A stretch of 64,000 bases of DNA from Candidatus Gottesmanbacteria bacterium RIFCSPLOWO2_01_FULL_43_11b (GCA_001780985.1 MFJV01000001.1:835497-899496); one strand, 5' to 3'; numbered from the stretch's first letter, positions 22,419 through 45,002 are shown. Program-made: numbers and translations. The notes: generated by a model not told the origin, from the sequence alone.

Positions 22419-23603
22419 ATGAGAATTTTATTTATTACCTCAACATTCCCACGGAGTATACACGATGATCAAGTTCCATGGCTGGCAGAATTCGTCCGTA
22501 AATTAAAAGAAAAGGGAGTACAACCGGTTGTTTATGCTCCTTCTTACAAAGGGCTTGCAACACATGAGTTTTTTGGCATTCCGGTTATCCGTTTCCGTTA
22601 CGGACCGAAAGAGCTGGAAATACTCACTCACGAGGAAGGGGCGATCTTTAAACTTCGTCAGAAGCCGTGGTTATTTATTCTTGCATTTTTTTATCTCTTG
22701 TTCGGAATCATCGGAATTTTCCGTCTCTCCCGTCACCATTCATTTGACGTTATTCATGTACAGTGGCCATTTCCGAACGGCATTTTCGGAATTGTTGCCA
22801 AGCGGTTGTTCCGAGCCAAACTTACCCTTACATTTCACGGAGCTGAATTTACTCTCGCTTCCCGCATTCCTCTAGGCGGATTTATCACAAAGACAATAAT
22901 GAAACAGGCCAACGCAATAATTGCAAACTCAACCTATACTAAAAATATGATTCAACACACCATACCCATGGATGTTTCTATTATTCCGTTTGGTTCCGCA
23001 ATTACGGGAACGACACAAGGCTATCATCAAGTACACAGGCAAGCAAAAGTGACGAATATTCTTTTTGTCGGACGATTTATCGAAAAAAAAGGTGTCACTT
23101 ATCTTATTGATGCAGCAGAAATTCTTCGTAAAAGACAGAAGTCGATTTCTCTTTCTATCGTCGGTTCCGGCGATCTAGCAGGGGAAATACGGAGTCAAAT
23201 TCATAGACTTGACTTAGACCAAATTATAAAAGTATATGAAAATCTCGATAAAGAGGAAATCGCTCAATTTTACAGGTGGTCAGACATTTTTGTGCTGCCG
23301 TCAATCGTAGACCGATGGAATGACACAGAGACCTTAGGCGTTGTACTTATAGAAGCAATGACTTTTGGAAAACCAGTTGTAGCATCCCGCGTTGGGGGCA
23401 TACCGGATGTTGTGAAACACAATAAAAACGGAATACTGGTTGCCGAAAAAGATCCGCAAGCGCTCGCTGATGCAATAGAGAAACTTATTCAGGAACCTGA
23501 ACTCCGCAGGAGGTTAGGAAGAAACGGACTGCAATTTGTGAAAAATCACTATAATTGGAAATCCATAATTGACAAAACAAGGCATCTTTATTTTTCACCA
23601 TGA
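22419..23603 (+). CDS. GT4 family glycosyltransferase
   Basis: VGRFIEKKGV..GSGDL.. and IEAMTFGKPVVASRVGGIPDVVKHNKNGILV. Confidence 0.85.
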   Translation: MRILFITSTFPRSIHDDQVPWLAEFVRKLKEKGVQPVVYAPSYKGLATHEFFGIPVIRFRYGPKELEILTHEEGAIFKLRQKPWLFILAFFYLLFGIIGIFRLSRHHSFDVIHVQWPFPNGIFGIVAKRLFRAKLTLTFHGAEFTLASRIPLGGFITKTIMKQANAIIANSTYTKNMIQHTIPMDVSIIPFGSAITGTTQGYHQVHRQAKVTNILFVGRFIEKKGVTYLIDAAEILRKRQKSISLSIVGSGDLAGEIRSQIHRLDLDQIIKVYENLDKEEIAQFYRWSDIFVLPSIVDRWNDTETLGVVLIEAMTFGKPVVASRVGGIPDVVKHNKNGILVAEKDPQALADAIEKLIQEPELRRRLGRNGLQFVKNHYNWKSIIDKTRHLYFSP

Positions 23604-25822
23604 AACAAAGAACTCATTTTATCCTCTTGTCTCTTGTTCTCCTCGCGTCTTTTTTAATTCGGACGATCGGCACGAAACCGGGATTTTGGGCTTACCATCC
23701 GGATGAACCTGCTACCTACGATTCCGCGATATCAATGATAATAAACGGTGACCTAAATCCGCGAAGATTTGATTATCCGGCGGGAGTGCCGTTAATCCAC
23801 ATGGCCGTTTTTCGGTCAATTTTTATTCCAATTAATTTTGTTAAATTAACCATTTCTGAGCCGCAAATGGTTATCTCAGCCCTCAAAAATTTTGAGGATT
23901 TTCCTAAAAACATAAGCGAGGAACTGTTTGGGAGACGCGGAGTAAATGCACTTTTTTGGTCACGCTACATTACTGCAGTCCTTGGAATGCTTTGCGTTGC
24001 TGCGATATACATGCTCTCCGCTATTTTATTCTCTCCTACTGTCGGACTCATAGCAGCATTTTTTCTCAGTTTTAATTATCTCCATGTTCTTCGAAGTCAT
24101 TTGGCTCTCACAGACATTCCCAACACTCTATTTACTCTTATTGCACTCATTGCAATCGCAAAACTTTTGAAGAAAGATTCACCCAAAAATTATTATTTAT
24201 CCGGCATAACCATCGGATTAGCATTCTCGGTAAAATTTCAGCTGTTCCTTATTTTTCCATACTTGCTTGTTCATCTTGTTTGGTCAATACGGAAAAAATC
24301 GTTTGCCAACTTTTTTCGAAAAGAAGTGTTCTTTTCAGCAATACTTGCAATCTTTACTTTTTTAATGATAAATCCATATCTACCGTTCCATTTAAAACCC
24401 GTACCTGTGGCCAGGCGAATTGATAGTTTCATTACAGCTAATGAAATAATAGCGAAGCGATACGCGTTTGGTTCCAACATATTTAATCCCTTCCCGATAT
24501 TTTATCTCTATAAATGGGGGATCGGAAAAGCATTGACGCTTTCAATTCTTGGTGGTGCTGCGTTGATGCTTTTTCAGTCACCGCTCCTTTTCTTTTTGCT
24601 TTTATCTATTATTTTTCCGTTCATGTACGCATTTGTGTACTACGGTGGGGCGGGCGCGGCATTTTATGTGCGTAATTTAGTTGCGATCGTGCCACTTCTT
24701 CTTGTTTTTTCTGCGTATTTCTATAGCAAATTATTTGCGTATGTGGGTAAAAGAGGGATATTGGTAAGTTTAATTCTTATTGGTGTTGCGTGGAGTCAGA
24801 TCACATCCTCAACAAAGCTAAGTTACTATTGGAGTAAACCGTGGTTATATATGCAAATGATTGATTGGGCATCCGATCATTTACCCAAAGATGCACGGTA
24901 CGAAGAAAGTTCAGGGATTGTTATGACGATTTTGAGAGATAAAGGTGGGTTCACTGATATCGACAATAGATGGGGGCGGGAGCAAATGAGCGTCGTATCC
25001 CTGGCTGAAATGGAAGAAGATGGTGCAGATTTCGGCATTCTTGTTTCTAATCAAATTCAAACTAGTTTTATCAGTTGGATGAATCCGTTAAGCTTTAGTG
25101 AGCTTCTTGATTATGATGATGTTTCTTTTAGTTTTCTCGATAACACCTATGTAGGACTATCCGTACATGAAATGCTTCAGAATAATGTTTATGAATTGCA
25201 CTATCCGATTTTTGTGCCGAATAACTTTATTTTTGTAACGAAGCTTCCGCTGAGTGTGGTTACACCTCTCGTGAGACACTACGCTTTCGAATTTAATGAA
25301 GCATCATCCATATGGGATGTAGATGGACTTACAGATAATGGAATGAGGGGTAAGTTTAGATGGAACGAAGGTAGCCTTATCATAGACGGAGCAGTTGGCC
25401 AAACAGCGCGTTTTACCTCACCAGTCTTGTCAGTAACTGAGGGAAAAACATATAAAATTATCGGAAGAGTGAAATATACCGATAACGTGCCAAAAGAGGA
25501 ACGGTCTGCATTTTTGAGAATAGACATGTATGCAAACAATCAAGAAGCGACTACCGAAGAAAAAGGTTCGCTCGTTACCGTTTCCGCACGAAGCTGGGGT
25601 GAACCCGGGTGGAAAGAAGTGAGTGTCCTGACGCCCAAGATTCCTAAAGGAATTAGTGTCATGAAAATAAGCTTTCAGACTCGAGGCAACAGTTCATACA
25701 AAGCATATCTTGATTCCGTGGAAGTTTGGGAAGTTAAACCTGGGGCGGAGCGGTACCCGGAAGTCCCTTATGTTCCCTATACCCTCCCACCACAATATTT
25801 TTACCCCAAGTCAGTTTTTTAA
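23600..25822 (+). CDS. GT-C (ArnT/PMT_2-like) glycosyltransferase fused to C-terminal beta-sandwich carbohydrate-binding-like domain, 740 aa
   Basis: N-terminal YHPDEPATYDSAI motif and about 12 TM helices. Soluble C-terminal ~300 aa (GKTYKIIGRVKYTD..FLRIDMYA..ISFQTRGNSSYKAYLDSVEVWEV) has a CBM4_9-like jelly-roll pattern. Paralog at 55871..58138. Confidence 0.75.
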   Translation: MKQRTHFILLSLVLLASFLIRTIGTKPGFWAYHPDEPATYDSAISMIINGDLNPRRFDYPAGVPLIHMAVFRSIFIPINFVKLTISEPQMVISALKNFEDFPKNISEELFGRRGVNALFWSRYITAVLGMLCVAAIYMLSAILFSPTVGLIAAFFLSFNYLHVLRSHLALTDIPNTLFTLIALIAIAKLLKKDSPKNYYLSGITIGLAFSVKFQLFLIFPYLLVHLVWSIRKKSFANFFRKEVFFSAILAIFTFLMINPYLPFHLKPVPVARRIDSFITANEIIAKRYAFGSNIFNPFPIFYLYKWGIGKALTLSILGGAALMLFQSPLLFFLLLSIIFPFMYAFVYYGGAGAAFYVRNLVAIVPLLLVFSAYFYSKLFAYVGKRGILVSLILIGVAWSQITSSTKLSYYWSKPWLYMQMIDWASDHLPKDARYEESSGIVMTILRDKGGFTDIDNRWGREQMSVVSLAEMEEDGADFGILVSNQIQTSFISWMNPLSFSELLDYDDVSFSFLDNTYVGLSVHEMLQNNVYELHYPIFVPNNFIFVTKLPLSVVTPLVRHYAFEFNEASSIWDVDGLTDNGMRGKFRWNEGSLIIDGAVGQTARFTSPVLSVTEGKTYKIIGRVKYTDNVPKEERSAFLRIDMYANNQEATTEEKGSLVTVSARSWGEPGWKEVSVLTPKIPKGISVMKISFQTRGNSSYKAYLDSVEVWEVKPGAERYPEVPYVPYTLPPQYFYPKSVF

Positions 25823-28100: not shown

Positions 28101-30137
28101 ATGAAGAGACTAATTTTCCCGCTCGTCCTATTTTTGACTTATCTTATCCTCGGGATTGTTACAATAACTAATTATGGTATCAATTGGGATGAGCCAGCTC
28201 ATTTTATACGCGGGCAGGTGTTTTTACGCTTTCTTCTTACAGGGAAGAAAGATTATGCAGGTCTTCCCGAAATAGACGCAAAGAGTTACAGGCAGGACTT
28301 TGGATACGAATTTCGTGACCCGAATACTAATTCCACAGTTCGCCGGAGCATCTATCAACACGATGACTATGGCCTTGTGTACTATACCCAGAATGTAGAA
28401 AAACGGGGGAGCCACCCCGCATTCTCAGACGTCATGTCAGCACTTTTTAATTACGTATTATTTGTTAAATTGGGTATCGCACCGGATGTATACTCCTATA
28501 ATTACTATTCAATTTTTGTTGCATCTTTATTGGTAACAGGGATATATATATGGACAAAAAAATACTTTGGTGGATTCGCAGCTATTGTCTCCACTCTCTC
28601 GCTAGCGCTTTTCCCTTTCTTTTGGGCAGAATCACACTACAACATAAAAGACGTGCCGGAGACGGTTTTCTACGCACTGTCCGTGCTTGTTTTTTATGAA
28701 GCAATTACATCCGCCAAAATAAAATACATTTGGTATTTTGCTTTTGTTTTTGCGATGGCATTTGCAACAAAGTTTAATGCTCTCTTTATTCTTCCGACCG
28801 TGCTTTTGTGGTTATTTCTACGGAACTTTTTCCTCTATCGAACGTCATGGAGAGAAATGTTTTCTTTCGTGAAAAAGAACAAAGCCTTTTTGGTTTTTTT
28901 GGTTGTTCCGATTATTGCGGTTGCGCTGTGGGTTCTTTCATTTCCGGCGATGTTGTTCGAGCCAAGACTCATTCCTGCATCATTTTCATATTACAAAACG
29001 ATTGGTACCACCCCGGTGGGAAATGATTGGCGCTATCCGCTCTATTATCTCTTTTATACCACTCCGCCATCTTTACTCATTTTTTCAATTATTGCACTGG
29101 CAGGAGAATTCACAAAAATCGATAGAAAAATAAAGGACATACTTCTCCTTATCATGGTTTGGATTTTTATACCGATTGTTCGAGTGATGATTCCCGGAAC
29201 CGCAATTTACGGCGGAGTGCGCCAAATTATGGAATACATCCCGGCGATTGCTATCTTATCCGGAATAGGAGCAAACAGATTAACCAAAATTCCCAGAATG
29301 TTTATCATTCTCACATTTATTCCTCTCATAGTTACCTTAGTGAAACTTCATCCCAATGAAGCGGTATACTTCAATAGCTTGATTGGCGGACTCGAAGGAG
29401 CAAAAGAACGTAATATTCCCGATTGGGGACAGACATTGGGGAATCCCTATAGGCAGGGAATACTCTGGATCAACCGGCACGCAGAAGAAAATGCACAATT
29501 GTCATTAGGATTTGAACTGTGGGCAAACCTTCCTCATATTTGGGTCCGCAACGACATAACGTACGATAACATTGTTAAAAGCGGACCAGCGCGTTTAGGG
29601 GAATATGTTATGGCAGTCATGAATCCAAGCGATGCGCTTAGTTGGTATCGGATGCAATATTTAGAAACATTTATTGACCCTGTTTATCAAGTGTCAGTAG
29701 ACGGAGTCGTACTTCTTACTGTGTGGAAAAACGATACAGCTCACCTGAAAGAGATGTATCGTACAATGGAAGAGGAAAAAATAGCAGATGTTCCCATCAC
29801 CGGCCACTTTCCCTCGTTTGTTCTTACGCTACCCAAAAAACACAAAATTCTCCGCATTGAATTCAAAAATAAAAACCCGTCCCTATGTCCGGAACCCGCA
29901 CGTCACGAACTTGATGATGTTGTAGGTATTTTCCGTTTCTACAGTGACACTTCAATGTCACGCTTCTTAAAAACGCTTCGAGCCTCATCGTATGATTTTA
30001 ACGGAAAAGTCAGCTACCCGCGACCGAACTTCCTCTTTGCAGCAGAGGAGGGGAGAGCGATCGTCTTTGACGTGGCAATCGACCACCCGTGCTATTCTAC
30101 AATCAGTGGGGCAAACGTCTATGTCGTAAAGGAGTAA
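28101..30137 (+). CDS. GT-C (ArnT-like) glycosyltransferase with C-terminal discoidin/F5-8-type-C-like domain, 678 aa; tandem paralog 1 of 3
   Basis: YGINWDEPAHFIRG motif. About 12 TM helices. IYGGVRQIMEYIPAIAILSGIGA block is shared by all three paralogs. C-terminal ~200 aa beta domain. Confidence 0.8.
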   Translation: MKRLIFPLVLFLTYLILGIVTITNYGINWDEPAHFIRGQVFLRFLLTGKKDYAGLPEIDAKSYRQDFGYEFRDPNTNSTVRRSIYQHDDYGLVYYTQNVEKRGSHPAFSDVMSALFNYVLFVKLGIAPDVYSYNYYSIFVASLLVTGIYIWTKKYFGGFAAIVSTLSLALFPFFWAESHYNIKDVPETVFYALSVLVFYEAITSAKIKYIWYFAFVFAMAFATKFNALFILPTVLLWLFLRNFFLYRTSWREMFSFVKKNKAFLVFLVVPIIAVALWVLSFPAMLFEPRLIPASFSYYKTIGTTPVGNDWRYPLYYLFYTTPPSLLIFSIIALAGEFTKIDRKIKDILLLIMVWIFIPIVRVMIPGTAIYGGVRQIMEYIPAIAILSGIGANRLTKIPRMFIILTFIPLIVTLVKLHPNEAVYFNSLIGGLEGAKERNIPDWGQTLGNPYRQGILWINRHAEENAQLSLGFELWANLPHIWVRNDITYDNIVKSGPARLGEYVMAVMNPSDALSWYRMQYLETFIDPVYQVSVDGVVLLTVWKNDTAHLKEMYRTMEEEKIADVPITGHFPSFVLTLPKKHKILRIEFKNKNPSLCPEPARHELDDVVGIFRFYSDTSMSRFLKTLRASSYDFNGKVSYPRPNFLFAAEEGRAIVFDVAIDHPCYSTISGANVYVVKE

Positions 30138-30140
30138 ACG

Positions 30141-30689
30141 TTATTCCTCTTGGGGTTTCGGCGTAGAAAATTCAAGTTCGAGATTTTTTAATTCTGTCTC
30201 ATTCCTCTGAGAGAATTCCAATATTTTCTGTAGATCAGTCTGTGTATCCGCTGAAGTTTTGCCAATCACACCGATAAGCAATTGTTGATGGTATGGGTAT
30301 GCGTCATGGGCGCGTTTTATAATTATTGTATCGAGCGAACCGGATTCGTCCGCCATTCTCTTGATCTCGTTAACAAATTGTGTCATGTAGTGTTCTCCCC
30401 GAAATGCAGAATGGAGACCAACGGCATTATCGCCCAGTTGAATAACTTTAGCAGCGCCCGTCAGTTCTCTGTCAGCAAGCTCTATATACTTAAGCGCTCT
30501 TTTGGCGGAGTCTTTCGTAAATAGTAAGGAAAGTTTATCCCAGACAAGCTGGAGTTTATAAAACGAGTTATTGGGTAACAGTTTGACTTCAGGCGCTTGA
30601 TAGGTTTGAGGAGTTTGCGCAAAAGCGGCGGGCAAGCCGGAAAAATAGACAATACCGGCAAAGAGAATGAAAAGCATCTTGAATTTCAC
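30141..30689 (-). CDS. small secreted DUF5667-like protein, paralog of 8071..8516
   Basis: Signal peptide MKFKMLFILFAGIVYFSGLPAAFA. LPNNSFYKLQLVWDKLSL..AKRALKYIELADRELTGA block parallels the other copy. Confidence 0.65.
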   Translation of the reverse strand: MKFKMLFILFAGIVYFSGLPAAFAQTPQTYQAPEVKLLPNNSFYKLQLVWDKLSLLFTKDSAKRALKYIELADRELTGAAKVIQLGDNAVGLHSAFRGEHYMTQFVNEIKRMADESGSLDTIIIKRAHDAYPYHQQLLIGVIGKTSADTQTDLQKILEFSQRNETELKNLELEFSTPKPQEE

Positions 30690-30746
30690 AATAGAACAAC
30701 CGTATCATAGCAAACATCATTTATCAAGAGGCACATAAAGACCGCG

Positions 30747-30755
30747 TGGTATAAT
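30747..30755 (+). promoter_or_regulatory. extended -10 promoter element TGGTATAAT
   Basis: Perfect TGnTATAAT lies 13 nt upstream of the ATG at 30769, inside the 79-bp divergent gap, so the mRNA would be near-leaderless. Confidence 0.4.
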
Positions 30756-30768
30756 TCCATGTGTTTGT

Positions 30769-32754
30769 ATGAAGAGACTAGGATTTATTCTCGGTACCTT
30801 GACCGCTCTTTTTTATTTAGCTATCCAGGTAGCGAGTTTGTCAAACTACGGCGTCAACTGGGATGAGCCGACGCATTTTGGAAGAGGGCATGCAATTCTG
30901 CATTTTTTTCTGACAGGGAATAAAGACTACAAACAGCTAACCGAAAAAGAAAATATACGGCGAAGTTTTTATCAGAGCGATGCGTATACATTCAACGTGT
31001 TTGAAAAAAAATTTGCTCAAGCTGCACCTCTAACCGTCGGTAATCACCCCCCACTGAGCGGCTTTTTCGCGGCGATATTCAATAAAATTTTTTATCAAAA
31101 ACTTGCGATACTCGGAGATATAGAATCGTATCACCTCTACAGTATTGTTATAAGCAGTGCGTTTATCGGCATACTTTTTTATTTTGTGCATGACGTGTAT
31201 GGGTTGTTTGCGGCTGTGGTTGCCGCAATTTCTCTGATCACGCACCCTCTTTTTTTAGGTGAAAGCCGTTTTAACATAAAAGACGTGCCGGAAGCTTCGT
31301 ATTTCGGTATTACTTTAGTGTGTTTTTACTACGCCATGACTAAAAAAAATTTAAAATGGTTACTGGCAACGGTGATTTTTTTTGGACTCGGCCTAGCTAC
31401 AAAACTCAATATTCTGTTTGTACTACCGATCATGTTGTTGTGGGGGGTGGTAGCGGGAATAAAGAAAACGAAAATACTTTCGGTACTCATTCTGGTTTTT
31501 TTTGTCGGCGGAATAATTTTTTTTGCTAGTTGGCCAATGCTCTGGGCATCTCCGGTCGTGCGTATTTTAAAAGTGTTGACATACTATAAAACAATCGGCA
31601 CGAACACCCATTTTGATCCGCAATACCTGACCATCTTCCGTCTCAATAGCTATGCGCTGCAATGGATACTTTATAGTACACCGCTCGTGACGTTGTTTTT
31701 TAGTTTTCTGGGTTTCGTTCAGGTCGTACGCAATCGCTCTTCGTTCCTTGTACTCCTGTGGTTTTTAACTCCTATTGCCAGAGTTACGCTTCCCAATACA
31801 AATATCTATGGTGGGGTGCGTCAGATTATGGAATATATCCCACCCATGGCAATACTTTCCGGGATTGGGGCGGCAGCAATGGTTAGTTGGTTAAAAAACA
31901 AAAGAGGAAAATTAAAAACGGTTTTTCAGATGATTATCATTCTTTCTTTTGTTCCGATAACAATGAAAATGATTCAGATGCACCCTAATGAGAGTGTCTA
32001 CTTTAACCCCATTATCGGCGGTCTCAAAGGAGCAGCCCAGCGAGGTATTCCCGGTTGGGGGAACTCACTGGGGAGTACCTACCGTCAGGGAGTAGGTTGG
32101 CTCAATGCACACGCAGAGAAGGGGGCGAAAATTGCGACGGTGTTTGGACTTCGAAGTAATATTCCTCTCATTGATCTTCGACCGGATATCGATTTTCAAA
32201 ACAAGTATAGAAGCGGCATATATAGAGACGGTGAATACATTATTGATGTAACACACGAAGGAACCCAAGAGCATTTATACCTGCGTAAATATCTTGACCG
32301 CTTTCTTGTTCCTGTTTACGAGCTTACTGTTGACAGTGTTCCTCTTCTCAAGATATGGAAAAACGATCTTGAACATACGAAGCCGTTCTATAAAAGTGAG
32401 GAGCGTATTCTCTGGAACGTAAATTCCGTAGTTCAAGACGAAAGGAAAATTGACATTGATATCGGCAAGGTTCTTCAAATTACGCAATTGACCGTTTTCT
32501 ATAACACTCGCACGTTCTGCGCACTCCCCGCTAAGGGGTATGTAGAATATTCCGTTGATAACGAACATTGGCTGCGAGCGGTAAATGATCTAACCTCATC
32601 GCCGCTTTCGTCTTGGTTCAAGCCCCAACCCGAGCCCGGCATCCTCCAATTTCTTTTTGCTGCCGAACCAGTAAGATTTATTCGTCTATTCATACACGAT
32701 GAAACTTCCTGTCTTTTGAGGGGACCTGTCTGGGTTTGGGTTAATTACTTATGA
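30769..32754 (+). CDS. GT-C (ArnT-like) glycosyltransferase with C-terminal discoidin-like domain, 661 aa; tandem paralog 2 of 3
   Basis: YGVNWDEPTHFGRG motif. C-terminal IDIGKVLQITQLTVFYN..GYVEYSVDNEHWLRAV..VRFIRLFIHDE fits the F5/8 type C (discoidin) pattern. Confidence 0.8.
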   Translation: MKRLGFILGTLTALFYLAIQVASLSNYGVNWDEPTHFGRGHAILHFFLTGNKDYKQLTEKENIRRSFYQSDAYTFNVFEKKFAQAAPLTVGNHPPLSGFFAAIFNKIFYQKLAILGDIESYHLYSIVISSAFIGILFYFVHDVYGLFAAVVAAISLITHPLFLGESRFNIKDVPEASYFGITLVCFYYAMTKKNLKWLLATVIFFGLGLATKLNILFVLPIMLLWGVVAGIKKTKILSVLILVFFVGGIIFFASWPMLWASPVVRILKVLTYYKTIGTNTHFDPQYLTIFRLNSYALQWILYSTPLVTLFFSFLGFVQVVRNRSSFLVLLWFLTPIARVTLPNTNIYGGVRQIMEYIPPMAILSGIGAAAMVSWLKNKRGKLKTVFQMIIILSFVPITMKMIQMHPNESVYFNPIIGGLKGAAQRGIPGWGNSLGSTYRQGVGWLNAHAEKGAKIATVFGLRSNIPLIDLRPDIDFQNKYRSGIYRDGEYIIDVTHEGTQEHLYLRKYLDRFLVPVYELTVDSVPLLKIWKNDLEHTKPFYKSEERILWNVNSVVQDERKIDIDIGKVLQITQLTVFYNTRTFCALPAKGYVEYSVDNEHWLRAVNDLTSSPLSSWFKPQPEPGILQFLFAAEPVRFIRLFIHDETSCLLRGPVWVWVNYL

Positions 32755-34745
32755 AAAAACTCTATCGTATCCTGGCGGGATTATTGGTCGGAGGATATTT
32801 CCTTATTAGTGTGGTTACACTACCCCGTTATGGAGTGAATTGGGATGAGGTGAATCATTCAACTCGAGGTCAGGCGTACATTTATTTCTTTCTAACCGGA
32901 AAAAAACAGTATGACCAATCACTTTTTGCTCAGGGCAACCGATACAGCCTCTATCAAATACCCGGATATGACTTCAATCACCAAATAAAAAAAGAGGGAG
33001 GACACCCGCCTCTTTCCGATATTTTATCGTCGCTTTTTAACTACATCTTTTATCAAAAATTAGAATGGTTGGGAGATATCGAGGCATACCATTTATACGG
33101 GGTAGTATTGACGGGTGTGTTTGCAGGATTCATCTATCTGTGGGTTGAGGGTATTTATGGTGGATTTCCCGGCCTCGTATCACTACTTGCATTACTTACG
33201 TATCCGTTATTTTACGGTGAATCTCACTTTAACGTACAAAAAGACATTCCTGAAGCAGCTTACTTAACCATGTGTGCCTTGGTTTTTTACACCGCCTTCA
33301 TTCGCAAATCAACACGATTGATGATTTTAACAGGAATCTTAGCTGGTTTAGCGTTAGGAACAAAATTAAACGTACTCTTTTTGGTTCCGGTTGTTATCCT
33401 GTGGGTGCTTCTCTTGGGGATACGAAAAAGTATTAATCTTTTTAAATTGAAACTATTTCTCATTCCTGTTATTGCATTTGTTATCTACTATATTAGTTGG
33501 CCGTGGCTTTGGCTCGACCCGATTGGGAATATAACCAAGAGCTTGGGTTACTATCAAATGATGGGAATTGTGAGTGAGCCTGCATTGCCGACCTCCTATT
33601 ACATATTGGGACTTAACACGTATGCTATCCAGTGGGTGCTATATACGACACCACTAATCACGCTTTTTCTGTCATGCGCGGGTATCTGGTGGGTGATTCG
33701 TCATGGGGGGAAGGAGAAATCAAAAACAGGTTTTTACATACTTTTATTATTCATCGTTCCCGTTGTACGGGTATCTTTTCCACTCACTTCTATTTATGGC
33801 GGTGTACGACAAATTATGGAATATATTCCGCCTTTAGCGATACTCGCAGGGATCGGAGCAAAATTCCTTACGGATAAGTTTAAAAAATATGGCTTCTTCC
33901 CACAGGTACTTATAATTATCCTTTTTGTTCCCATAACAGCCAAAATGATATCGATGCATCCTAACGAGAGTATCTACTTTAATCCGATTATCGGAGGACT
34001 CAAAGGCGCAGCGGAGCGTAACATCCCCGGTTGGGGAAATTCTTTGGGGAGTACGTATCGACAAGGATTGCGATGGCTTAATGCGAATGCAGAAGAGAAG
34101 TCAAAACTGTCAACAATCTTTGAACTCCGTAGTAATATTCCACCCATTGATATCAGATCAGATTTCGATTTTCAAAATAGATACAGAAGCGGCATATACA
34201 GAGATGGTGAATATGTTATTGGTGTTACGCACAATGGCACACAGGAGTCGTCGTACTACCGAAAGTATTTAGATCGGTTTTTAGATCCGGTGTATGAAGT
34301 ACGCGTGGAAGGAGTAGCGATACTTAAGGTGTGGAAAAATGATTTAGCCCACACGAAGAAGGAATACATGATACCAGACAAGGTCATTTCTAATGTTGTG
34401 GTGACACCCCGAGGCCGATCATTGCTTATTGATCTTGGGGCAGTATACCAATTGACGCAACTTAATCTCTTTTTTTCTCCCAATGAGTGCTCGATGGAAG
34501 AGGGAGGGAGAATTGACGGATCACGAGAGGGGAGTCAATGGGCGAATATTTATCCTGACATATTCGGTAATTTTGGTTCCCGATTTGCCCCCTATGACGA
34601 ACCAGGAAACCTCCAATACCCATTTGCTGCGGATGAGGTTCGGTATATTCGTATAACACACTACCCACTTCGTTCCTGTTTGATGACGACCCCCGTTAAG
34701 GCTTCTGCGCGGGGATATGGCCCCTTAAATCCTTCGACAGAATAA
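32751..34745 (+). CDS. GT-C (ArnT-like) glycosyltransferase with C-terminal discoidin-like domain, 664 aa; tandem paralog 3 of 3
   Basis: YGVNWDEVNHSTRG motif. ATGA overlap with paralog 2. C-terminal LIDLGAVYQLTQLNLFF...VRYIRITHY. Confidence 0.8.
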   Translation: MKKLYRILAGLLVGGYFLISVVTLPRYGVNWDEVNHSTRGQAYIYFFLTGKKQYDQSLFAQGNRYSLYQIPGYDFNHQIKKEGGHPPLSDILSSLFNYIFYQKLEWLGDIEAYHLYGVVLTGVFAGFIYLWVEGIYGGFPGLVSLLALLTYPLFYGESHFNVQKDIPEAAYLTMCALVFYTAFIRKSTRLMILTGILAGLALGTKLNVLFLVPVVILWVLLLGIRKSINLFKLKLFLIPVIAFVIYYISWPWLWLDPIGNITKSLGYYQMMGIVSEPALPTSYYILGLNTYAIQWVLYTTPLITLFLSCAGIWWVIRHGGKEKSKTGFYILLLFIVPVVRVSFPLTSIYGGVRQIMEYIPPLAILAGIGAKFLTDKFKKYGFFPQVLIIILFVPITAKMISMHPNESIYFNPIIGGLKGAAERNIPGWGNSLGSTYRQGLRWLNANAEEKSKLSTIFELRSNIPPIDIRSDFDFQNRYRSGIYRDGEYVIGVTHNGTQESSYYRKYLDRFLDPVYEVRVEGVAILKVWKNDLAHTKKEYMIPDKVISNVVVTPRGRSLLIDLGAVYQLTQLNLFFSPNECSMEEGGRIDGSREGSQWANIYPDIFGNFGSRFAPYDEPGNLQYPFAADEVRYIRITHYPLRSCLMTTPVKASARGYGPLNPSTE

Positions 34746-35466: not shown

Positions 35467-36695
35467 AATGACTGTAAGAGGTGTTCAACATCCTGTTTCA
35501 TTCCCAAGAGTTCAAATTTTTCATCATAGGTCTTTTTTGCATTTGATCCAAGCTTCATTGCTAATTGTTTATCTTTAAGGAGTCGAACGATTGCTTGAGC
35601 GAGAAGGATAGAGTTATGGGGTGGAACGAGCAGACCTGAATATTCATGTTTTATATCCTCAGGAATCCCGTCACAGTCAGTGGAGACAATAGGTGTAGCT
35701 TGGCTCATAGCTTCAATGACTGACAAAGCGCTGCTTCCTTCTTCAACCGTCGGCAAGACGTAAACAGAAGATTTTCGCAAAATCGTATGAATGTCAGCAA
35801 CTGCACCGGGAAAGATAACAGAAGAAAGCTGTAATTTTCTCGCCAATCGTTTATTAGCATCCCGAAGAATACCCGCGCCTATAATAAGACACTCACAGTC
35901 GATTTGCTTTTTCACCAACACGAGTGCGTGAAGTAAATAATTAATACCTTTTCTTGGATCTTGCCGACAAATACTTGTTACGATTGGTTTACGGGAATCA
36001 AATGCTTTTTGCATCCGTTTTGATACGGGTGTTCTGATTTCTTTTTTAAATACTTCGACAAAGTATCTCATGCGAATAAATTTATTCGTGTTAATCTGGG
36101 ATTCAGATTTGAGAATTTCTTCGGTGGATTTGTAATGGGTAACTATTTTTTCTGACATTGAAATAACAAGGGTTGATAAAAAACTATAAATTCGGGCAAT
36201 GATGTAATAGACAAACAAATATTTCAGTTTTGTTGATATACCGTAATCCCTTATTCTTGCCGCCAAAAGCGACCCTCTCATTTCGTGAAGAAATGTTGTA
36301 AAGTAGCTTGATATAAGTACTACTTTTTTTCCGTAAACTATTTTTAAAAGTGCTCCTGAAAGTCCCCAAGGGCCTATTCCCCAGATAATTATGCGGTTAT
36401 TTTTGTATGATCGAAAAATAGCGATAAGTTCTTTAAAAAAGAAATAACTGTAAAGGGGCAACGCAGCAAGTTCTATATTTCGTATAAGCGGCAGATGATT
36501 TAGCCAACGCGACTTTATAAAGTGAATAGTTGCGATATCCCGTTTTTCTATCTTTTTTATATCTGCAAATGTCAGAAGGTGCACCGGATGGCCGGTTGCC
36601 GATATGATCTTAGCGATATTCCGTGCATATGAAGCATACCCACCGGTAGAGGTATACGGGGATTTACCGCCGATGACGACGACGGGTAATTTCAT
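35463..36695 (-). CDS. GT4 family glycosyltransferase
   Basis: EEGSSALSVIEAMSQATPIVSTDCDGIPEDIKHEYSGLLVP. Confidence 0.8.
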   Translation of the reverse strand: MKLPVVVIGGKSPYTSTGGYASYARNIAKIISATGHPVHLLTFADIKKIEKRDIATIHFIKSRWLNHLPLIRNIELAALPLYSYFFFKELIAIFRSYKNNRIIIWGIGPWGLSGALLKIVYGKKVVLISSYFTTFLHEMRGSLLAARIRDYGISTKLKYLFVYYIIARIYSFLSTLVISMSEKIVTHYKSTEEILKSESQINTNKFIRMRYFVEVFKKEIRTPVSKRMQKAFDSRKPIVTSICRQDPRKGINYLLHALVLVKKQIDCECLIIGAGILRDANKRLARKLQLSSVIFPGAVADIHTILRKSSVYVLPTVEEGSSALSVIEAMSQATPIVSTDCDGIPEDIKHEYSGLLVPPHNSILLAQAIVRLLKDKQLAMKLGSNAKKTYDEKFELLGMKQDVEHLLQSL

Positions 36696-37782
36696 GGATA
36701 GCGTAGGATACCATTTCTATTTGTTTTTTTGTAATAGCTAACCCGGAGGGCAGGTAAAGACCTCGGCGGGAAATTTCATCAGAAACAGGGAAACGCTCAT
36801 TGCCTAGATGATATTTACGAAGAGCTGGTTGGCAATGGAGCGGTATAAAAAAAGTTCTTGTATCAATGCCTTTCTTTTTGAGTTTGTCCATGAGTTCATC
36901 ACGGCTTATACCGAAAGAAGGTTCAATGAGAATAGAGTACATCCAGTAAACATTTCTCGCCCATGGTTTTTTGGGGGGTAATGAAATGCCTTCTATATCG
37001 GAAAGCAATCGATTATAGAGATCAGCCATCCATAACTTTTTTTCTATAAATTTATCTACTTCTTCAAGTTGCGCAAGGCCTAAAGCAGCCTGGAGATTGG
37101 TGAGTCTGTAGTTAAATGCGATTTCTTCATGGAGAAATCTTCGTTTTGGTGAGTGAGCAAGATCTTTGAGCATCCGTGCCCGAGTAGCAAGTTTTTCGTC
37201 GTCTGTAACAACCATGCCTCCCTCGCCGGTTGTTACGATTTTATTTGCGTAGAAACTAAAACAGTTGATTTTTCCGAAAGAACCAACCATTTTCCCTTTG
37301 TAAAGAGCCCCATGGGCTTCTGCTGCATCCTCCACAACTGCCAATTTGTACTTTTTTGCAAGAGAAATGAGAGGATCCATATCAACCGGGTGCCCATAAA
37401 TATGAACAGGTATGATCACTTTTGTGTGTTTGGTAATTTTTCTTTCTATTTTTTTCACATCAATGTTCCATGTATCCCGCTCCACGTCGACAACAACAGG
37501 TTTTGCTCCGGTATAACAGATTGCATCAGCGCAGGCGAACATTGTGTGGTCGGGAACAATTACCTCATCACCCGGACCAGTACCGAGGGTAGCGAGAGCC
37601 AGATGAAGTGCGGTCGTTCCGTTGGTTGTTGTGATTGCATATTTAACTCCGATAAATTTTGCGAATGCTTCTTCAAACTTAGTTATGTAGGAGCCGGCAG
37701 AAGAAATCCATCCGGTTTTGATGCAATCGGAAACGTATTTGAGCGCGTTTTTGGCAATCAACGGCTGATTAACGGGAATCAT
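36664..37782 (-). CDS. DegT/DnrJ/EryC1/StrS-family PLP-dependent sugar aminotransferase
   Basis: GDEVIVPDHTMFA..VDVE..DAAEAHG..CFSFYANKIVTTGEGGMVVTDD, with the catalytic Lys present (NK). Confidence 0.85.
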   Translation of the reverse strand: MIPVNQPLIAKNALKYVSDCIKTGWISSAGSYITKFEEAFAKFIGVKYAITTTNGTTALHLALATLGTGPGDEVIVPDHTMFACADAICYTGAKPVVVDVERDTWNIDVKKIERKITKHTKVIIPVHIYGHPVDMDPLISLAKKYKLAVVEDAAEAHGALYKGKMVGSFGKINCFSFYANKIVTTGEGGMVVTDDEKLATRARMLKDLAHSPKRRFLHEEIAFNYRLTNLQAALGLAQLEEVDKFIEKKLWMADLYNRLLSDIEGISLPPKKPWARNVYWMYSILIEPSFGISRDELMDKLKKKGIDTRTFFIPLHCQPALRKYHLGNERFPVSDEISRRGLYLPSGLAITKKQIEMVSYAIHEITRRRHRR

Positions 37783-38182
37783 GGTGGTCTAGGTATCTTT
37801 TTGCTTTTTCATAACCCGGATAGGGGCCTTGTTTCACTTCAAAAATGACTGTATCCTCGAGCATCTTAAATCCGTGTCCGCCTGCTGCTAAAAATATTTT
37901 ATCTCCCCCGGATAGCGTTACTTTGTGAACACGTTTTCCGTTTGGCGCATAGAGATCGACAATGAGTTTTCCTCTTTCAACCACTAAAACCTCCTGTGTT
38001 GCCCGTACGGTTTTTACCGGTTCATTATGCATATGCGGTCGTATAGTTTCACCGGACTTTTTAACAATCGTACCTATTTGGAATGGGGCAGTGGAAGGAG
38101 AGTAAAACGTGGTTTTAGAGGGAGTCTTGTTACCCCGAATAATAATTGCGAGTAACAGCCGACGGTAATAAATTTTAGACAT
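37769..38182 (-). CDS. small cupin-fold protein (possibly WbuC-like), no clear ketoisomerase motif
   Basis: About 137 aa from the internal Met MSKIYY. GETIRPHMHNEPVKTVRATQEVLVVERGKL..KIFLAAGGHGFKMLEDTVIFEV fits a generic cupin metal-site pattern. Sits immediately upstream of, and overlapping, the DegT gene. Confidence 0.55.
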   Translation of the reverse strand: MSKIYYRRLLLAIIIRGNKTPSKTTFYSPSTAPFQIGTIVKKSGETIRPHMHNEPVKTVRATQEVLVVERGKLIVDLYAPNGKRVHKVTLSGGDKIFLAAGGHGFKMLEDTVIFEVKQGPYPGYEKAKRYLDHHDSR

Positions 38183-39080
38183 AATCTTGTTTTTTTCGTG
38201 ACATCGATGTGACGAGTTCCGCAATAAGCCCTACGGAAATAAGCTGGACTCCGATGACCATGAGGAGTATGCCGGCAAGGAGTAACGGAATATGATGGCC
38301 AACACTTCCGGTAGTAACGCGTATATACGTAACATATGCGTTCATCACAAAACCGATAGAGGTAAGAAGAAATCCATAAAGACCAAAAAAATGAGCAGGC
38401 TTACCTTCGTAATGGGTAAGGAAGAGCACAGTAAGCAGGTCTATTACGGCTCTCCAGCTCCTTCCCAGACCAAATTTTGATTTGCCGAACTTTCTCTTTC
38501 GATGAGCAACCGGAAGTTCCGTAACTTTGTATTTAAGTTTCGCAGCAAGTATAGGGATAAACCGGTGGAGTTCACCATGAAGATTAAGGGATTTTGCAAC
38601 ATTTCCCGTCATGGCTTTGAGGCCGCAATTATAATCATGGAGCGGAACTCCTGAAAGAAACCGAGTTCCGACGTTAAATAGGTAGCTTGAAATTTTCTTT
38701 TCGACACTGTCTTTTCTTTCTTTCCGCCACCCAACAACCAGATCGTACCCGTCGTTAAGTTTCTCTATTAGTTTTATTATTTCTTTTGGATTATCCTGCA
38801 GGTCAGCATCAAGGGTGACGACAACATTCCCTTTTGCTTGTGAAAATCCGTATGCGAGCGCTTCGGACTTGCCAAAATTTGCGCGGAAGTGGAAAACGCG
38901 AACGTGTTTATTTTTCCGTGCAACGGATTCTAATGCTATTTTCGTTTTGTCAGTTGATCCGTCATTAACAAAAAGTATTTCATACGGTTCTCTTACGGTT
39001 TTGAGGATCGCGAAGAGCTCATCGGTTAGATGCGGAAGAGATTCCGCTTCATTTTTGACAGGAATAACAATACTTATCAT
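38175..39080 (-). CDS. GT2 polyprenol-phosphate glycosyltransferase (GtrB/ArnC/DPM1-like) with C-terminal TM anchor
   Basis: Start at internal Met MISIVIPVKNE. ILFVNDGSTDKT..VTLDADLQD..GLKAM, then two C-terminal TM helices (LLAGILLMVIGVQLISVGLIAEL). Confidence 0.8.
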   Translation of the reverse strand: MISIVIPVKNEAESLPHLTDELFAILKTVREPYEILFVNDGSTDKTKIALESVARKNKHVRVFHFRANFGKSEALAYGFSQAKGNVVVTLDADLQDNPKEIIKLIEKLNDGYDLVVGWRKERKDSVEKKISSYLFNVGTRFLSGVPLHDYNCGLKAMTGNVAKSLNLHGELHRFIPILAAKLKYKVTELPVAHRKRKFGKSKFGLGRSWRAVIDLLTVLFLTHYEGKPAHFFGLYGFLLTSIGFVMNAYVTYIRVTTGSVGHHIPLLLAGILLMVIGVQLISVGLIAELVTSMSRKKQDYV

Positions 39081-39130
39081 ATCGTGCTCGAGTATAGAGA
39101 AAACGCAAGGGCAAGTCAACGAATTGAGGG

Positions 39131-39973
39131 TTATTTTCGGGTTCGACCAATAAATAACCATCCAAGAGACACATGAAGAATACATGTCTCTAAGCCCACT
39201 GCGATAGCCCGTGTTACGGAAAATTTTTTAAGGAAATTAAGACCTTGAAGTACGTCTGCAACAACAACAATAACTTTTCCCCGTTCTTTATCCAAGCCGG
39301 ACATTTTATAGGATTTTAGGAAATCAAGCGTGATATCCTCAACAGTAAAGAAGTTCTGTACCATTTGACGAAACTGTTTGTAACTTGGAAGGCGAATATT
39401 GTGGTATGAGTCTCCTCTTCCTAACAGTCGTACGTAGCTGTCTGCAATTTTTGCGGGCAGATAAGACAAGAAGGGGAGTTTAAAATGCGGTTCAATCGGC
39501 CACCATTTATTTGCTGTGGTGATATGCAGTATACCGTCTTTTTTAAGTACTCTGTGTATTTCTTCGAGCATGCGCAACGGTTTATTTACGTGTTCAATAA
39601 CCTCAATTGATGTAACAATGTCAAACGTATTTGAGGGATACGGAATTTTTATCCCGTCGTATTTTTTTACCACTGCGGATATTCGAAGCAACCGCAACAG
39701 CTCCTTCGTTGCTTTTACCTCTCCGTCTCCCACATCGAGTGCTACGGAGCTAGGAAATGTTTGAGCAATTGCACTAAATGTAAGGCCGGTCCCGCAACCG
39801 AGATCCAGTACTTTTGCCCGTTTCGTTTTATACTGGAGGAGTGTATTGACAACTCTTTCTGCTTTAAGCGGTGCAACGCGGGAGTACCCGCGAGCCCAGT
39901 TTTGATTTTTAGCATACTGACTATATTTCCGAATATGGGTATAACTCACTGCGGGGGTTAATTTTACTCTCAT
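39131..39973 (-). CDS. class I SAM-dependent methyltransferase
   Basis: VLDLGCGTGLTFSAIA and FDIVTSIEVIEHV. Confidence 0.8.
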   Translation of the reverse strand: MRVKLTPAVSYTHIRKYSQYAKNQNWARGYSRVAPLKAERVVNTLLQYKTKRAKVLDLGCGTGLTFSAIAQTFPSSVALDVGDGEVKATKELLRLLRISAVVKKYDGIKIPYPSNTFDIVTSIEVIEHVNKPLRMLEEIHRVLKKDGILHITTANKWWPIEPHFKLPFLSYLPAKIADSYVRLLGRGDSYHNIRLPSYKQFRQMVQNFFTVEDITLDFLKSYKMSGLDKERGKVIVVVADVLQGLNFLKKFSVTRAIAVGLETCILHVSLGWLFIGRTRK

Positions 39974-39994
39974 AGCGTGCTATCATAGCAGGAT

Positions 39995-43337: not shown

Positions 43338-43370
43338 TGGTACGAGTTTTTCCTGCTACTATACGAAGAT

Positions 43371-44995: not shown

Positions 44996-45002
44996 TAATT
45001 TT

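What the first reader, a model, noticed from the sequence alone, without database searches (positions are those of the whole stretch)
28101..34745. Tandem triplication of GT-C glycosyltransferases fused to discoidin-like lectin domains
Three consecutive 660-680 aa paralogs share the YG(V/I)NWDEP(T/A)HF loop, the IYGGVRQIMEYIPP(M/L/A)AIL block and a C-terminal ~200 aa beta domain. That domain has the hallmarks of an F5/8 type C (discoidin) carbohydrate-binding fold (IDIGKVLQITQLTVFYN..GYVEYSVDNEHWL..VRFIRLFIHDE; LIDLGAVYQLTQLNLFF..VRYIRITHY). A GT-C catalytic core covalently linked to a lectin-like domain suggests acceptor-glycan recognition built into the transferase, for example for processive or ordered elongation. 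The C-terminal domains are the most diverged parts, consistent with sub-functionalisation toward different acceptor glycans.
Basis: partly seen in the sequence, partly recalled or inferred. Interest (0 to 1): 0.7.

Follow-up and report, generated by a model that had tools for sequence, protein, structure and literature searches.

The report
Membrane glycosyltransferase paralogs with discoidin-like tails
Three related membrane sugar-transferases of an ultra-small (CPR) bacterium each carry an outward-facing, discoidin/CBM32-like module at their C-terminus; this is a design already known from mycobacterial and enterobacterial enzymes, so it is a solid but fairly ordinary find.

Summary
- 32 of 60 family tails hit PF00754.
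- All top-50 Foldseek PDB hits are CBM32 or discoidin folds.

- The genes are not strictly consecutive. A minus-strand gene separates A and B.
- The "200-aa beta domain" is two domains.
- The paralogs are old. Each has orthologs in other Gottesmanbacteria-like genomes.
- Sugar binding is unproven, and no binding pocket is conserved.

The source is Candidatus Gottesmanbacteria. The family is common in Microgenomates, and in about two-thirds of 70 related loci it is linked to an ArnC/GtrB-like polyprenyl-phosphate glycosyltransferase. The most likely function is extracytoplasmic addition of a lipid-phosphate-linked sugar to a surface glycan, with the tail targeting the acceptor. GT-C enzymes with CBMs are already known (EmbC, AftD, GT136 ORF12). 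Verdict: new member of a known kind, modest interest.

The parts
28101..30137 (+). Paralog A, 678 aa: GT-C membrane glycosyltransferase with alpha/beta domain and a divergent discoidin-like tail (tail about 29742-30134)
   Evidence: ORF. PMT_2 E 1.1e-8, 35.9 bits against a 26.1-bit cut-off. Family HMM 712 bits; tail HMM E 5e-16. Keeps all invariant family residues except W601, which is S.
30141..30689 (-). Intervening gene on the opposite strand: 182-aa protein with a signal-peptide-like N-terminus and a weak DUF5667 match. It is a conserved neighbour of the family.
   Evidence: ORF. DUF5667 E 9.4e-5, below the cut-off. The same FAM / DUF5667 / FAM arrangement occurs in L001-L003, and a homolog lies next to the ArnC-like gene in six other loci.
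30769..32754 (+). Paralog B, 661 aa (= NCBI A3A79_04855, 'hypothetical protein'): the GT-C glycosyltransferase that was modelled
30835..31116 (+). B first extracytoplasmic loop (residues 23-116) with the candidate catalytic motif NWDEPTHFGRG. D32, H36 and R39 are invariant; H93 is also invariant.
   Evidence: Invariant columns in 116 sequences. The position after TM1 is as in GT-C enzymes (established knowledge; PMC11127046).
31975..32388 (+). B alpha/beta extracytoplasmic domain (residues 403-540; HPNE...YFN..GGL.GA...WKND). It is the most conserved part of the family.
   Evidence: DSSP of the model. Identity B-C 74%; family mean 52.8% against 42.9% overall. Invariant residues: P406, G418, A422, G435, E489, Y490, Y508, N532.
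32401..32751 (+). B C-terminal beta-sandwich (residues 545-661): short F5/8 type C / CBM32-like module with the invariant Cys pair C584/C648
32751..34745 (+). Paralog C, 664 aa (= A3A79_04860). It overlaps B by 4 nt. The discoidin-like tail is about 34350-34742.
   Evidence: ORF. P0029. PMT_2 E 3.4e-10 and weak F5_F8_type_C_2 E 0.06 at residues 557-602. Tail HMM E 3e-33.
38175..39185 (-). ArnC/GtrB-like GT2 with C-terminal TM helices: candidate polyprenyl-phosphate-sugar synthase that supplies the donor
   Evidence: Glycos_transf_2. Near full-length PDB matches to ArnC (E 4.5e-46), GtrB sll0501 (2e-34) and DPMS (4e-16). 51 of 70 related loci hold a full-length ArnC/GtrB-like GT2, 46 of them a close ortholog (E <= 1e-89), and about 20 are directly adjacent and convergent.

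Best explanation
A, B and C are three anciently diverged paralogs of a Microgenomates-wide family of GT-C-fold (PMT_2 / ArnT-PMT-ALG-like) integral-membrane glycosyltransferases.

Architecture. Each has 11 TM helices with the N-terminus inside. The catalytic acidic motif (D32/E33, with H36 and R39) lies in the first outside loop. After TM11 comes a conserved outside alpha/beta domain, and then a terminal ~115-aa F5/8 type C / CBM32-like beta-sandwich.

Proposed mechanism (inferred):
1. The linked ArnC/GtrB-like GT2 loads a monosaccharide onto polyprenyl phosphate at the cytoplasmic face. The sugar's identity is unknown. An amino or pentose-derived sugar is possible, given the neighbouring Ugd-, UXS- and DegT-like genes.
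2. The lipid-P-sugar is flipped across the membrane.
3. Each paralog transfers that sugar outside the membrane onto a cell-surface acceptor. The acceptor is most likely the glycan made by the surrounding Wzx/GT2/GT4 genes.

The conserved TM core plus alpha/beta domain would do the chemistry. The hypervariable discoidin-like tail would tether or orient the acceptor polymer. The paralogs could then share one donor but decorate different sites or glycans, as serotype-specific Gtr enzymes do.

Shown: gene structure, paralogy, fold assignments, homology of the tail to F5/8 type C, conserved linkage to the ArnC-like gene, and retention of all invariant residues in all three copies. Inferred: topology, donor class, acceptor class, and any sugar binding by the tail.
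For: - Invariant residues D32, H36, R39, H93, E165, N169, K171, D172, K212, N214, R338, Y347 and R351 are kept in A, B and C.
- Tail. 32 of 60 family tails hit PF00754 and 21 of 60 hit PF22633. The tail profile hits factor V C domains and CBM32 in the PDB at E about 1e-3. In a library of 1.84 billion proteins it hits multi-F5/8C proteins, including GH81- and GH116-domain proteins, at E 1e-15 to 1e-9; Pfam confirmed these.
- Outside location. There are 11 hydrophobic helices, K/R-rich predicted inside loops, and an invariant Cys pair flanked by paired single-residue beta-bridges in the model.
- Partner. The ArnC/GtrB-like GT2 is identified and is linked in 46-51 of 70 loci. The recurrent cassette is Wzx>GT2>GT4>(MT)GT4>FAM>ArnC<.
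- Old paralogy with conserved synteny. The A, B and C clades each contain L001/L002/L003 genes, and B-C adjacency is kept in L002.
- Precedent. The CBM after TM11 of the GT136 enzyme ORF12 binds the unmodified O-polysaccharide, and CBMs occur in EmbA/B/C and AftD (PMC11127046). One AftD CBM resembles CBM32 structure 4A45 (bioRxiv 10.1101/2019.12.22.885152).
Against: - There is no biochemical data for any family member.
- The window's own tails do not reach Pfam significance alone (B and A give no hit; C gives E 0.06).
- The tail is shorter (~105-115 aa) than typical CBM32 or discoidin modules (130-160 aa). Family-wide, it shows no conserved pocket residues, and its strands and loops are about equally variable (2.53 against 2.72 bits).
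- Three to four natural family members lack the tail, so it is not needed for the core function.
- No GtrA/SMR-type flippase ORF was found in the window.
- Discoidin-fold modules can also bind lipids or peptides.
- The model's coordinates could not be inspected, so neither the distance from the tail to the active site nor the disulfide geometry was measured.
- The ArnC-like gene is 3.4 kb from C in this window, not adjacent.
Confidence: 0.6

Rival explanations
1. The enzymes are protein O-glycosyltransferases, PMT-like or like the actinobacterial Pmt. They glycosylate secreted, S-layer or pilin proteins as these emerge. The discoidin-like tail binds the protein substrate, or an already glycosylated protein, rather than a polysaccharide.
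For: - The Pfam family is PMT_2, and B has a near-threshold PMT hit (21.1 against 22.7 bits).
- The 11-TM layout and the D-E motif in loop 1 are as in PMTs.
- A secreted DUF5667-like protein gene is a conserved neighbour and could be an acceptor.
- Discoidin folds such as neuropilin b1 bind peptides (hits).
Against: - There is no MIR domain.
- ALG12 and ArnT score higher than the PMTs.
- The family is embedded in a conserved Wzx/GT2/GT4 glycan-assembly cassette.
- Most fold neighbours of the tail are bacterial CBM32 sugar binders.
Confidence: 0.2
2. The tail is not a ligand-binding lectin at all. It is a structural module (spacer, oligomerisation or stabilising cap for the alpha/beta domain) that drifts freely, and acceptor specificity lies wholly in the core and the alpha/beta domain.
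For: - Only structural-looking residues are conserved (C584, C648, W601, F630), and strands and loops have similar entropy.
- The tail is a truncated version of the fold.
- Tail-less natural variants exist.
- The CBM of GT136 ORF12 was dispensable for activity in vivo and in vitro (PMC11127046).
Against: - The tail is retained in nearly all full-length copies found in the 70 loci; three to four lack it.
- Its closest fold neighbours are sugar-binding CBM32 modules.
- The CBMs of EmbC, AftD and ORF12 do bind acceptor glycans (PMC11127046; bioRxiv 10.1101/2019.12.22.885152).
Confidence: 0.15
3. The enzymes transfer a pre-assembled oligosaccharide en bloc from a polyprenyl-diphosphate carrier (oligosaccharyltransferase- or ligase-like), or they act as processive polymerases (Emb-like), rather than adding single sugars.
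For: - The best Foldseek E-values are to STT3, PglB and AglB.
- The locus encodes a Wzx-like flippase and many cytoplasmic GTs that would build a PP-linked glycan.
Against: - The alignment shows no WWDYG-type OST motif in the periplasmic domain.
- The gene most tightly linked across genomes is an ArnC/GtrB-type polyprenyl-monophosphate sugar synthase.
Confidence: 0.08

Closest known systems
GT136 ORF12 of Citrobacter youngae O1 (three-component periplasmic ribofuranosylation; PMC11127046)
   Same: - It is a GT-C enzyme with a beta-rich CBM placed after TM helix 11.
- Its essential residues are an Asp/Glu near residue 31-34 after TM1, a His near 106, and Arg/Tyr near 349-350. These resemble D32/E33, H93 and Y347/R351 here, but the similarity is by position only and no alignment was made.
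- It works with a lipid-P-sugar synthase and a flippase.
- Its CBM binds the unmodified acceptor glycan.
   Different: - The ORF12 CBM is described as immunoglobulin-like, not F5/8 type C.
- The donor synthase there is a PRPP-dependent phosphoribose synthase, not an ArnC/GtrB-type GT2.
- The host is a Gram-negative bacterium with an O-antigen.
Mycobacterial arabinofuranosyltransferases AftD and EmbA/B/C
   Same: - They are GT-C cores with appended extracytoplasmic CBMs that bind the acceptor glycan.
- One AftD CBM has a CBM32 structure (4A45) as its structural homolog (bioRxiv 10.1101/2019.12.22.885152).
   Different: - They are much larger (more than 1000 aa, 13-16 TM) and carry several CBMs.
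- The donor is decaprenyl-P-arabinose.
- Their fold scores are lower than those of ALG12, ArnT and PMT.
- They are not PMT_2 family members.
ArnT (GT83) with ArnC, and GtrB with serotype-specific Gtr GT-C enzymes
   Same: - The partner GT2 is homologous to ArnC and GtrB over nearly its full length.
- Several GT-C paralogs sharing one lipid-P-sugar donor but differing in acceptor site is the Gtr paradigm (PMC11127046).
   Different: - A sequence search of the PDB found no ArnT match at E <= 10.
- This family has 11 TM helices rather than 13.
- It has an extra alpha/beta domain plus discoidin-like tail.
- The acceptor cannot be lipid A, assuming (from general knowledge, not tested here) that CPR bacteria lack an outer membrane.
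- No ArnE/F- or GtrA-type flippase was found nearby.
Protein O-mannosyltransferases (PMT, GT39)
   Same: - They belong to the same Pfam clan member, PMT_2.
- They have 11 TM helices and an Asp-Glu motif in loop 1.
- They carry a lectin-like accessory domain (MIR beta-trefoil) on the outside (PMC7759382).
   Different: - The accessory domain here is C-terminal and of the discoidin type, not a MIR domain in loop 5.
- PF02366 scores below its cut-off.
CBM32 / F5/8 type C (discoidin) modules of bacterial glycoside hydrolases
   Same: - The beta-sandwich fold is the same.
- The S.DG..W and ARYIR-type strand motifs are shared.
- Profile-level sequence homology holds in both directions.
   Different: - The module here is about 25-30% shorter.
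- It has a different, family-specific Cys pair.
- It shows no conserved Ca or sugar-binding residues.
- It is attached to a membrane transferase rather than to a hydrolase.

Membership tests
GT-C fold glycosyltransferases (Pfam PMT_2 PF13231; ArnT/PMT/ALG-like class) | Sequence match to the family model above the curated cut-off | tested here: met
   PMT_2 scores 35.9, 47.6 and 40.8 bits for A, B and C against a 26.1-bit cut-off.
GT-C fold glycosyltransferases (Pfam PMT_2 PF13231; ArnT/PMT/ALG-like class) | Polytopic membrane core with the GT-C fold | tested here: met
   [not shown]
GT-C fold glycosyltransferases (Pfam PMT_2 PF13231; ArnT/PMT/ALG-like class) | Conserved acidic residue(s) in the first extracytoplasmic loop after TM1 | tested here: met
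   D32 is invariant in 116 sequences. E33, H36 and R39 are present in A, B and C.
GT-C fold glycosyltransferases (Pfam PMT_2 PF13231; ArnT/PMT/ALG-like class) | Uses a polyprenyl-phosphate-linked sugar donor; transferase activity | not testable with these tools
   Support is indirect only: conserved linkage to an ArnC/GtrB-like GT2.
F5/8 type C (discoidin) / CBM32 domain | The window's own sequences match PF00754 or PF22633 at significance | tested here: not met
   A and B give no hit. C gives PF22633 at E 0.06, 14.4 bits against a 27.8-bit cut-off.
F5/8 type C (discoidin) / CBM32 domain | Family-level (profile) homology to F5/8 type C | tested here: met
   32 of 60 homologous tails hit PF00754 (best E 1.2e-7) and 21 of 60 hit PF22633. 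The tail profile finds factor V C domains and CBM32 in the PDB. It also finds Pfam-confirmed multi-F5/8C proteins at E 1e-15 to 1e-9 in 1.84 billion proteins.
F5/8 type C (discoidin) / CBM32 domain | Galactose-binding-domain-like beta-sandwich fold | tested here: met
   [not shown]
F5/8 type C (discoidin) / CBM32 domain | Carbohydrate (or other ligand) binding through the loops at one end of the sandwich | not testable with these tools
   No pocket residues are conserved family-wide.
Three-component extracytoplasmic glycosylation systems (GtrA/GtrB/Gtr*, ArnC/ArnEF/ArnT, CsbB/GtcA/YfhO) | Polyprenyl-phosphate sugar synthase (GT2 with C-terminal TM helices) encoded nearby | tested here: met
   The gene at 38175-39185 (-) matches ArnC at E 4.5e-46 and GtrB at 2e-34. 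It is linked in 46-51 of 70 related loci.
Three-component extracytoplasmic glycosylation systems (GtrA/GtrB/Gtr*, ArnC/ArnEF/ArnT, CsbB/GtcA/YfhO) | Dedicated small flippase (GtrA / SMR / MATE) | tested here: inconclusive
   The window has no ORF of 200 aa or fewer with two or more hydrophobic helices. A Wzx-like gene (21189-22412) and several unassigned polytopic ORFs exist.
Protein O-mannosyltransferase (PMT, GT39 proper) | PF02366 above its cut-off and a MIR domain in the large lumenal loop | tested here: not met
   PF02366 scores 21.1 bits against a 22.7-bit cut-off in B and is absent in A and C. There is no MIR hit.
ArnT (GT83 proper) | Detectable sequence similarity to ArnT; 13 TM helices | tested here: not met
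   phmmer against PDB sequences gives no ArnT match at E <= 10. There are 11 helices. Similarity is at the fold level only.

The most novel reading that the evidence does not exclude
This Microgenomates-specific family would be a new CAZy GT family. In it, paralogous GT-C enzymes share one lipid-linked donor, made by the ArnC-like partner and possibly an amino sugar. Each paralog is steered by a fast-evolving, miniaturised CBM32-like module to a different site on the envelope glycan. That would give these ultra-small, host-dependent bacteria a combinatorial, serotype-like surface-glycan code, within a 64-kb island that holds a dozen or more GT-C genes.
Probability: 0.15. Interest if true: 0.55.

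Novelty: new member of a known kind. Interest (0 to 1): 0.3.

Why it matters
No CPR envelope glycan or CPR GT-C enzyme has been characterised, to my knowledge, and full-text searches found nothing. This family occurs across Microgenomates, often in several copies, and is consistently paired with a lipid-sugar synthase. It therefore looks like a core part of how these bacteria decorate their surface.

The high-confidence model gives clear constructs for testing: the tail alone, the tail-less enzyme, and tail swaps. The principle of a GT-C enzyme with an appended CBM is already established for EmbC, AftD and GT136 ORF12. The gain is a new family and a new lineage, not a new concept.

Tried and rejected
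- NCBIfam found no model for any of the GT-C proteins or the intervening gene.
- A sequence search of the PDB with full-length B gave nothing relevant.
It was replaced by a scan of the tails alone.
- A search for a small GtrA-like flippase ORF in the window found none.
- PDB searches with the 151-aa ORF at 37769-38224 and with the C-terminal 230 aa of the 740-aa GT-C were uninformative.
- Literature searches returned nothing on this family. The terms tried were GT-C + discoidin, CPR + GT-C, CBM32 + GT-C, and Patescibacteria + PMT_2.
- A recent tandem triplication was considered and rejected. The NJ tree places A, B and C in separate clades together with genes from other genomes.
- I looked for loop-specific hypervariability in the tail as a sign of a diversifying binding face. 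Strands and loops are about equally variable, so that argument is not available.


Full report
**Observation**

The window encodes three + strand ORFs at the stated coordinates: A 28101-30137 (678 aa), B 30769-32754 (661 aa) and C 32751-34745 (664 aa). They are unmistakable paralogs. Overall identity is B-C 50%, B-A 36% and C-A 35%, and a family HMM scores them at 712-923 bits.

Four details need correction.
- The genes are not strictly consecutive. A 182-aa minus-strand ORF (30141-30689) lies between A and B. It has a signal-peptide-like N-terminus and a sub-threshold DUF5667 match. B and C overlap by 4 nt.
- Paralog C departs from the first quoted motif (YGVNWDEVNHS), and A from the second (…EYIPAIAIL).
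- The "C-terminal ~200 aa beta domain" is two domains (see Anatomy).
- The trio is not an isolated or recent triplication (see Family, distribution and age of the paralogs).

**Source**

B is 100% identical to a "hypothetical protein A3A79_04855" of Candidatus Gottesmanbacteria bacterium RIFCSPLOWO2_01_FULL_43, on a contig of about 1.02 Mb. C is its neighbour A3A79_04860. This is a CPR (Microgenomates) genome.

**Anatomy**

All three proteins match Pfam PMT_2 above its gathering cut-off. An AlphaFold2 model of B, built on a 116-sequence alignment, is very confident (pLDDT 94.6, pTM 0.93).
- Foldseek against the PDB returns only GT-C enzymes at the top: STT3, PglB, AglB, ArnT and ALG12, at E 2e-9 to 4e-7.

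Eleven helices of the model are hydrophobic enough to span the membrane. With the N-terminus (MKR) inside, the first long loop (residues 23-116) is outside. It carries the invariant D32, together with E33, H36 and R39, and further along the invariant H93. Everything after residue about 403 is then also outside. Predicted inside loops are K/R-rich.

Other residues invariant across the 116 sequences lie at the outer ends of helices. They are E165, N169, K171, D172, K212, N214, R338, Y347, G348, G349, R351 and E355. All are retained in A, B and C, so all three copies look catalytically competent.

The soluble C-terminal part of about 260 aa consists of two domains.
1. An alpha/beta domain (B residues 403-540) is the most conserved part of the protein. 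Identity is B-C 74%, against a family mean of 52.8% for this domain and 42.9% overall.
2. A beta-sandwich (residues 545-661) is the most diverged part. Identity is B-C 32%, B-A 18% and C-A 16%, with a family mean of 25.8%.

**Is the tail discoidin-like?**

Yes, on three independent lines of evidence.
1. Pfam. Of 60 family tails scanned singly, 32 hit PF00754 (F5/8 type C; best E 1.2e-7) and 21 hit PF22633. Three full-length homologs already carry a precomputed PF00754 assignment. The window's own tails are too diverged to pass alone: A and B give nothing, and C gives E 0.06.
2. Profile searches. A profile of the tails finds factor V C domains, BF3579 and CBM32 modules in the PDB at E about 1e-3 to 2e-2. 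In a library of 1.84 billion representative proteins it finds 275 proteins at E <= 1e-3. Besides family members of 650-720 aa, which carry the match at their C-terminus, these are large multi-repeat proteins. The six checked by Pfam carry 2-6 F5/8 type C domains each; one of them also has a GH81 domain and another GH116 domains.

The module is short (~105-115 aa against 130-160). It has a family-specific invariant Cys pair, C584/C648. In the model these cysteines sit next to single-residue beta-bridges at 585 and 647.

Apart from the two Cys, only W601 and F630 are conserved, and strands and loops are about equally variable. The fold is therefore established, but sugar binding is not.

**Family, distribution and age of the paralogs**

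At least 467 database proteins match B at E <= 1e-3; the best 120, which are the ones listed, all score E <= 1e-143. A scan of one genome per species found 70 loci. Those with informative organism names are Gottesman-, Levyi-, Davies-, Woese- and Blackburnbacteria and other Patescibacteria. Many MAG titles read "uncultured Gammaproteobacteria", which is probably a placeholder.

Nearly all copies carry the tail. Three or four lack it: L021 9974-11632, L040 6056-7774, L067 9956-11590, and a split copy in L005. About 24 loci hold two or more copies within 10 kb.

A neighbour-joining tree of 89 full-length copies gives this grouping:
- A groups with L003_5412, L003_7886 and L001_6154.
- B groups with L001_9935 and L002_9980.
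- C groups with L002_12022 and L003_9986.

B-C adjacency is kept in L002, and the arrangement FAM > DUF5667 < FAM > FAM is kept in L003. The three genes are thus old, orthologously maintained lineages within a Gottesmanbacteria-level expansion. That fits division of labour and argues against a recent duplication.

**Context and mechanism**

The whole window is a glycan-biosynthesis island.
- It has GT4 and GT2 transferases, three DegT aminotransferases, SDR epimerases/dehydratases, methyltransferases and a Wzx-like flippase.
- It has a Ugd-like dehydrogenase and a UDP-glucuronate-decarboxylase-like enzyme (E 8e-61 to human UXS1).
- It has at least nine further GT-C-type membrane proteins of other families (PMT_2, YfhO/PTPS-related, GT87-like).

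The most informative neighbour is the GT2 at 38175-39185 (-), which has C-terminal TM helices. It matches ArnC (E 4.5e-46), GtrB (2e-34) and archaeal Dol-P-Man synthase (4e-16) over nearly its whole length. It is therefore a polyprenyl-phosphate glycosyltransferase.

A full-length homolog of this GT2 lies within 10 kb of the family gene in 51 of 70 related loci. In 46 of them it is a close ortholog (E <= 1e-89). In about 20 it is directly adjacent and convergent. The recurrent cassette is Wzx > GT2 > GT4 > (MT) GT4 > FAM > ArnC-like < GT2-MT >.

This is the signature of the "three-component" extracytoplasmic glycosylation systems: a lipid-P-sugar synthase, a flippase, and a GT-C (reviewed in PMC11127046). 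The Gram-positive CsbB/GtcA/YfhO version is from my own knowledge. No small flippase ORF was found in the window.

My best explanation follows. The ArnC-like enzyme charges polyprenyl phosphate with a sugar of unknown identity, and the charged lipid is flipped. A, B and C each transfer the sugar outside the membrane to a surface acceptor, most likely the glycan built by the surrounding cassette. The conserved core plus alpha/beta domain would do the catalysis, and the variable discoidin-like tail would tether the acceptor.

Rival explanations:
- Protein O-glycosylation.
- A purely structural tail.
- En-bloc or processive transfer.

**Comparison with what is known**

GT-C enzymes with appended acceptor-binding CBMs are established.
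- EmbA/B/C and AftD carry them. One AftD CBM has the CBM32 structure 4A45 as its structural homolog (bioRxiv 10.1101/2019.12.22.885152).
- In the GT136 enzyme ORF12 of Citrobacter youngae, a beta-rich CBM follows TM11. It binds the unmodified O-polysaccharide yet is dispensable for activity (PMC11127046).
- PMTs carry a lectin-like MIR domain (PMC7759382).

The present family matches the general design but is not a member of those families.
- PF02366 is below its cut-off and there is no MIR domain.
- There is no sequence match to ArnT.
- It has 11 TM helices rather than 13.

I found no paper on this family, or on GT-C enzymes in CPR bacteria, in the searchable library.

**Verdict**

The finding is real and its structural interpretation is correct. 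It is best filed as a new, uncharacterised member (a CPR-specific family) of a known kind of enzyme architecture. The lectin function, donor sugar and acceptor remain inferences. Interest is modest (0.3). The most novel reading still open is a combinatorial surface-glycan code, generated by paralogous GT-Cs with fast-evolving mini-CBM32 modules sharing one lipid-linked donor. It has low probability (about 0.15) and moderate interest (0.55).

Noticed in passing
window 987-25822, 50565-52028, 55871-58138, 63252-64000: The 64-kb window is unusually rich in GT-C-type membrane proteins besides A, B and C. PMT_2 hits lie at 987-2432, 2429-3862, 5357-6607, 18964-20238, 23600-25822 and 55871-58138. 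YfhO/PTPS-related hits lie at 3859-5421 and, weakly, at 12075-13592. There is a weak GT87 hit at 9594-10646. Unassigned ORFs with 7-10 predicted TM helices lie at 8485-9597, 10609-12093, 14549-15589 and 50565-52028. A truncated GT-C starts at 63252. That makes a dozen or more in a genome assembled into a contig of about 1 Mb.
   Followed up: partly
window 23600-25822 and 55871-58138: A second GT-C paralog pair (740 and 755 aa, 33% identical over the full length, E 2e-116) has its own ~330-aa soluble C-terminal region. The end of that region looks beta-rich and CBM-like (…GKTYKIIGRVKY…VMKISFQ…). Pfam and a PDB sequence search gave nothing for it, and no structure was predicted.
   Followed up: partly
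window 30141-30689 (-); L001-L004, L044, L056, L060, L064, L070: The small DUF5667-like protein gene, which has a signal-peptide-like N-terminus, is a recurrent neighbour either of the GT-C family genes or of the ArnC-like gene in related genomes. It could be an extra component or an acceptor of the system.
   Followed up: partly
window 36664-46064: The gene set resembles the Arn pathway. It has a Ugd-like dehydrogenase (39995-41200), a UDP-glucuronate decarboxylase-like SDR (45003-46064, E 8e-61 to UXS1), a DegT aminotransferase (36664-37782; best PDB match perosamine synthetase 6e-97, ArnB 2e-58) and the ArnC-like GT2. The lipid-linked donor might therefore be an amino or pentose-derived sugar. 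The set is not uniformly conserved in related loci.
   Followed up: partly
[not shown]
   Followed up: no
L021 9974-11632, L040 6056-7774, L067 9956-11590, L005 14145-15800, L064 13219-15157: A few family members in other genomes naturally lack the discoidin-like tail. Two others, in L005 and L064, are split into two ORFs, which may reflect frameshifts or pseudogenes.
   Followed up: partly
record titles of loci L002, L003, L005, L011 and others: Many MAGs that carry this Microgenomates-type locus are titled 'uncultured Gammaproteobacteria bacterium', and one is titled 'Woesearchaeota archaeon'. These are probably placeholder or mis-assigned taxonomy in the public records.
   Followed up: no
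window 41197-42648: This is a fusion protein of a GT2 domain and a SAM-methyltransferase domain (483 aa). In many related genomes a homolog is the conserved gene immediately beyond the ArnC-like gene (cassette FAM > ArnC < GT2-MT >).
   Followed up: no
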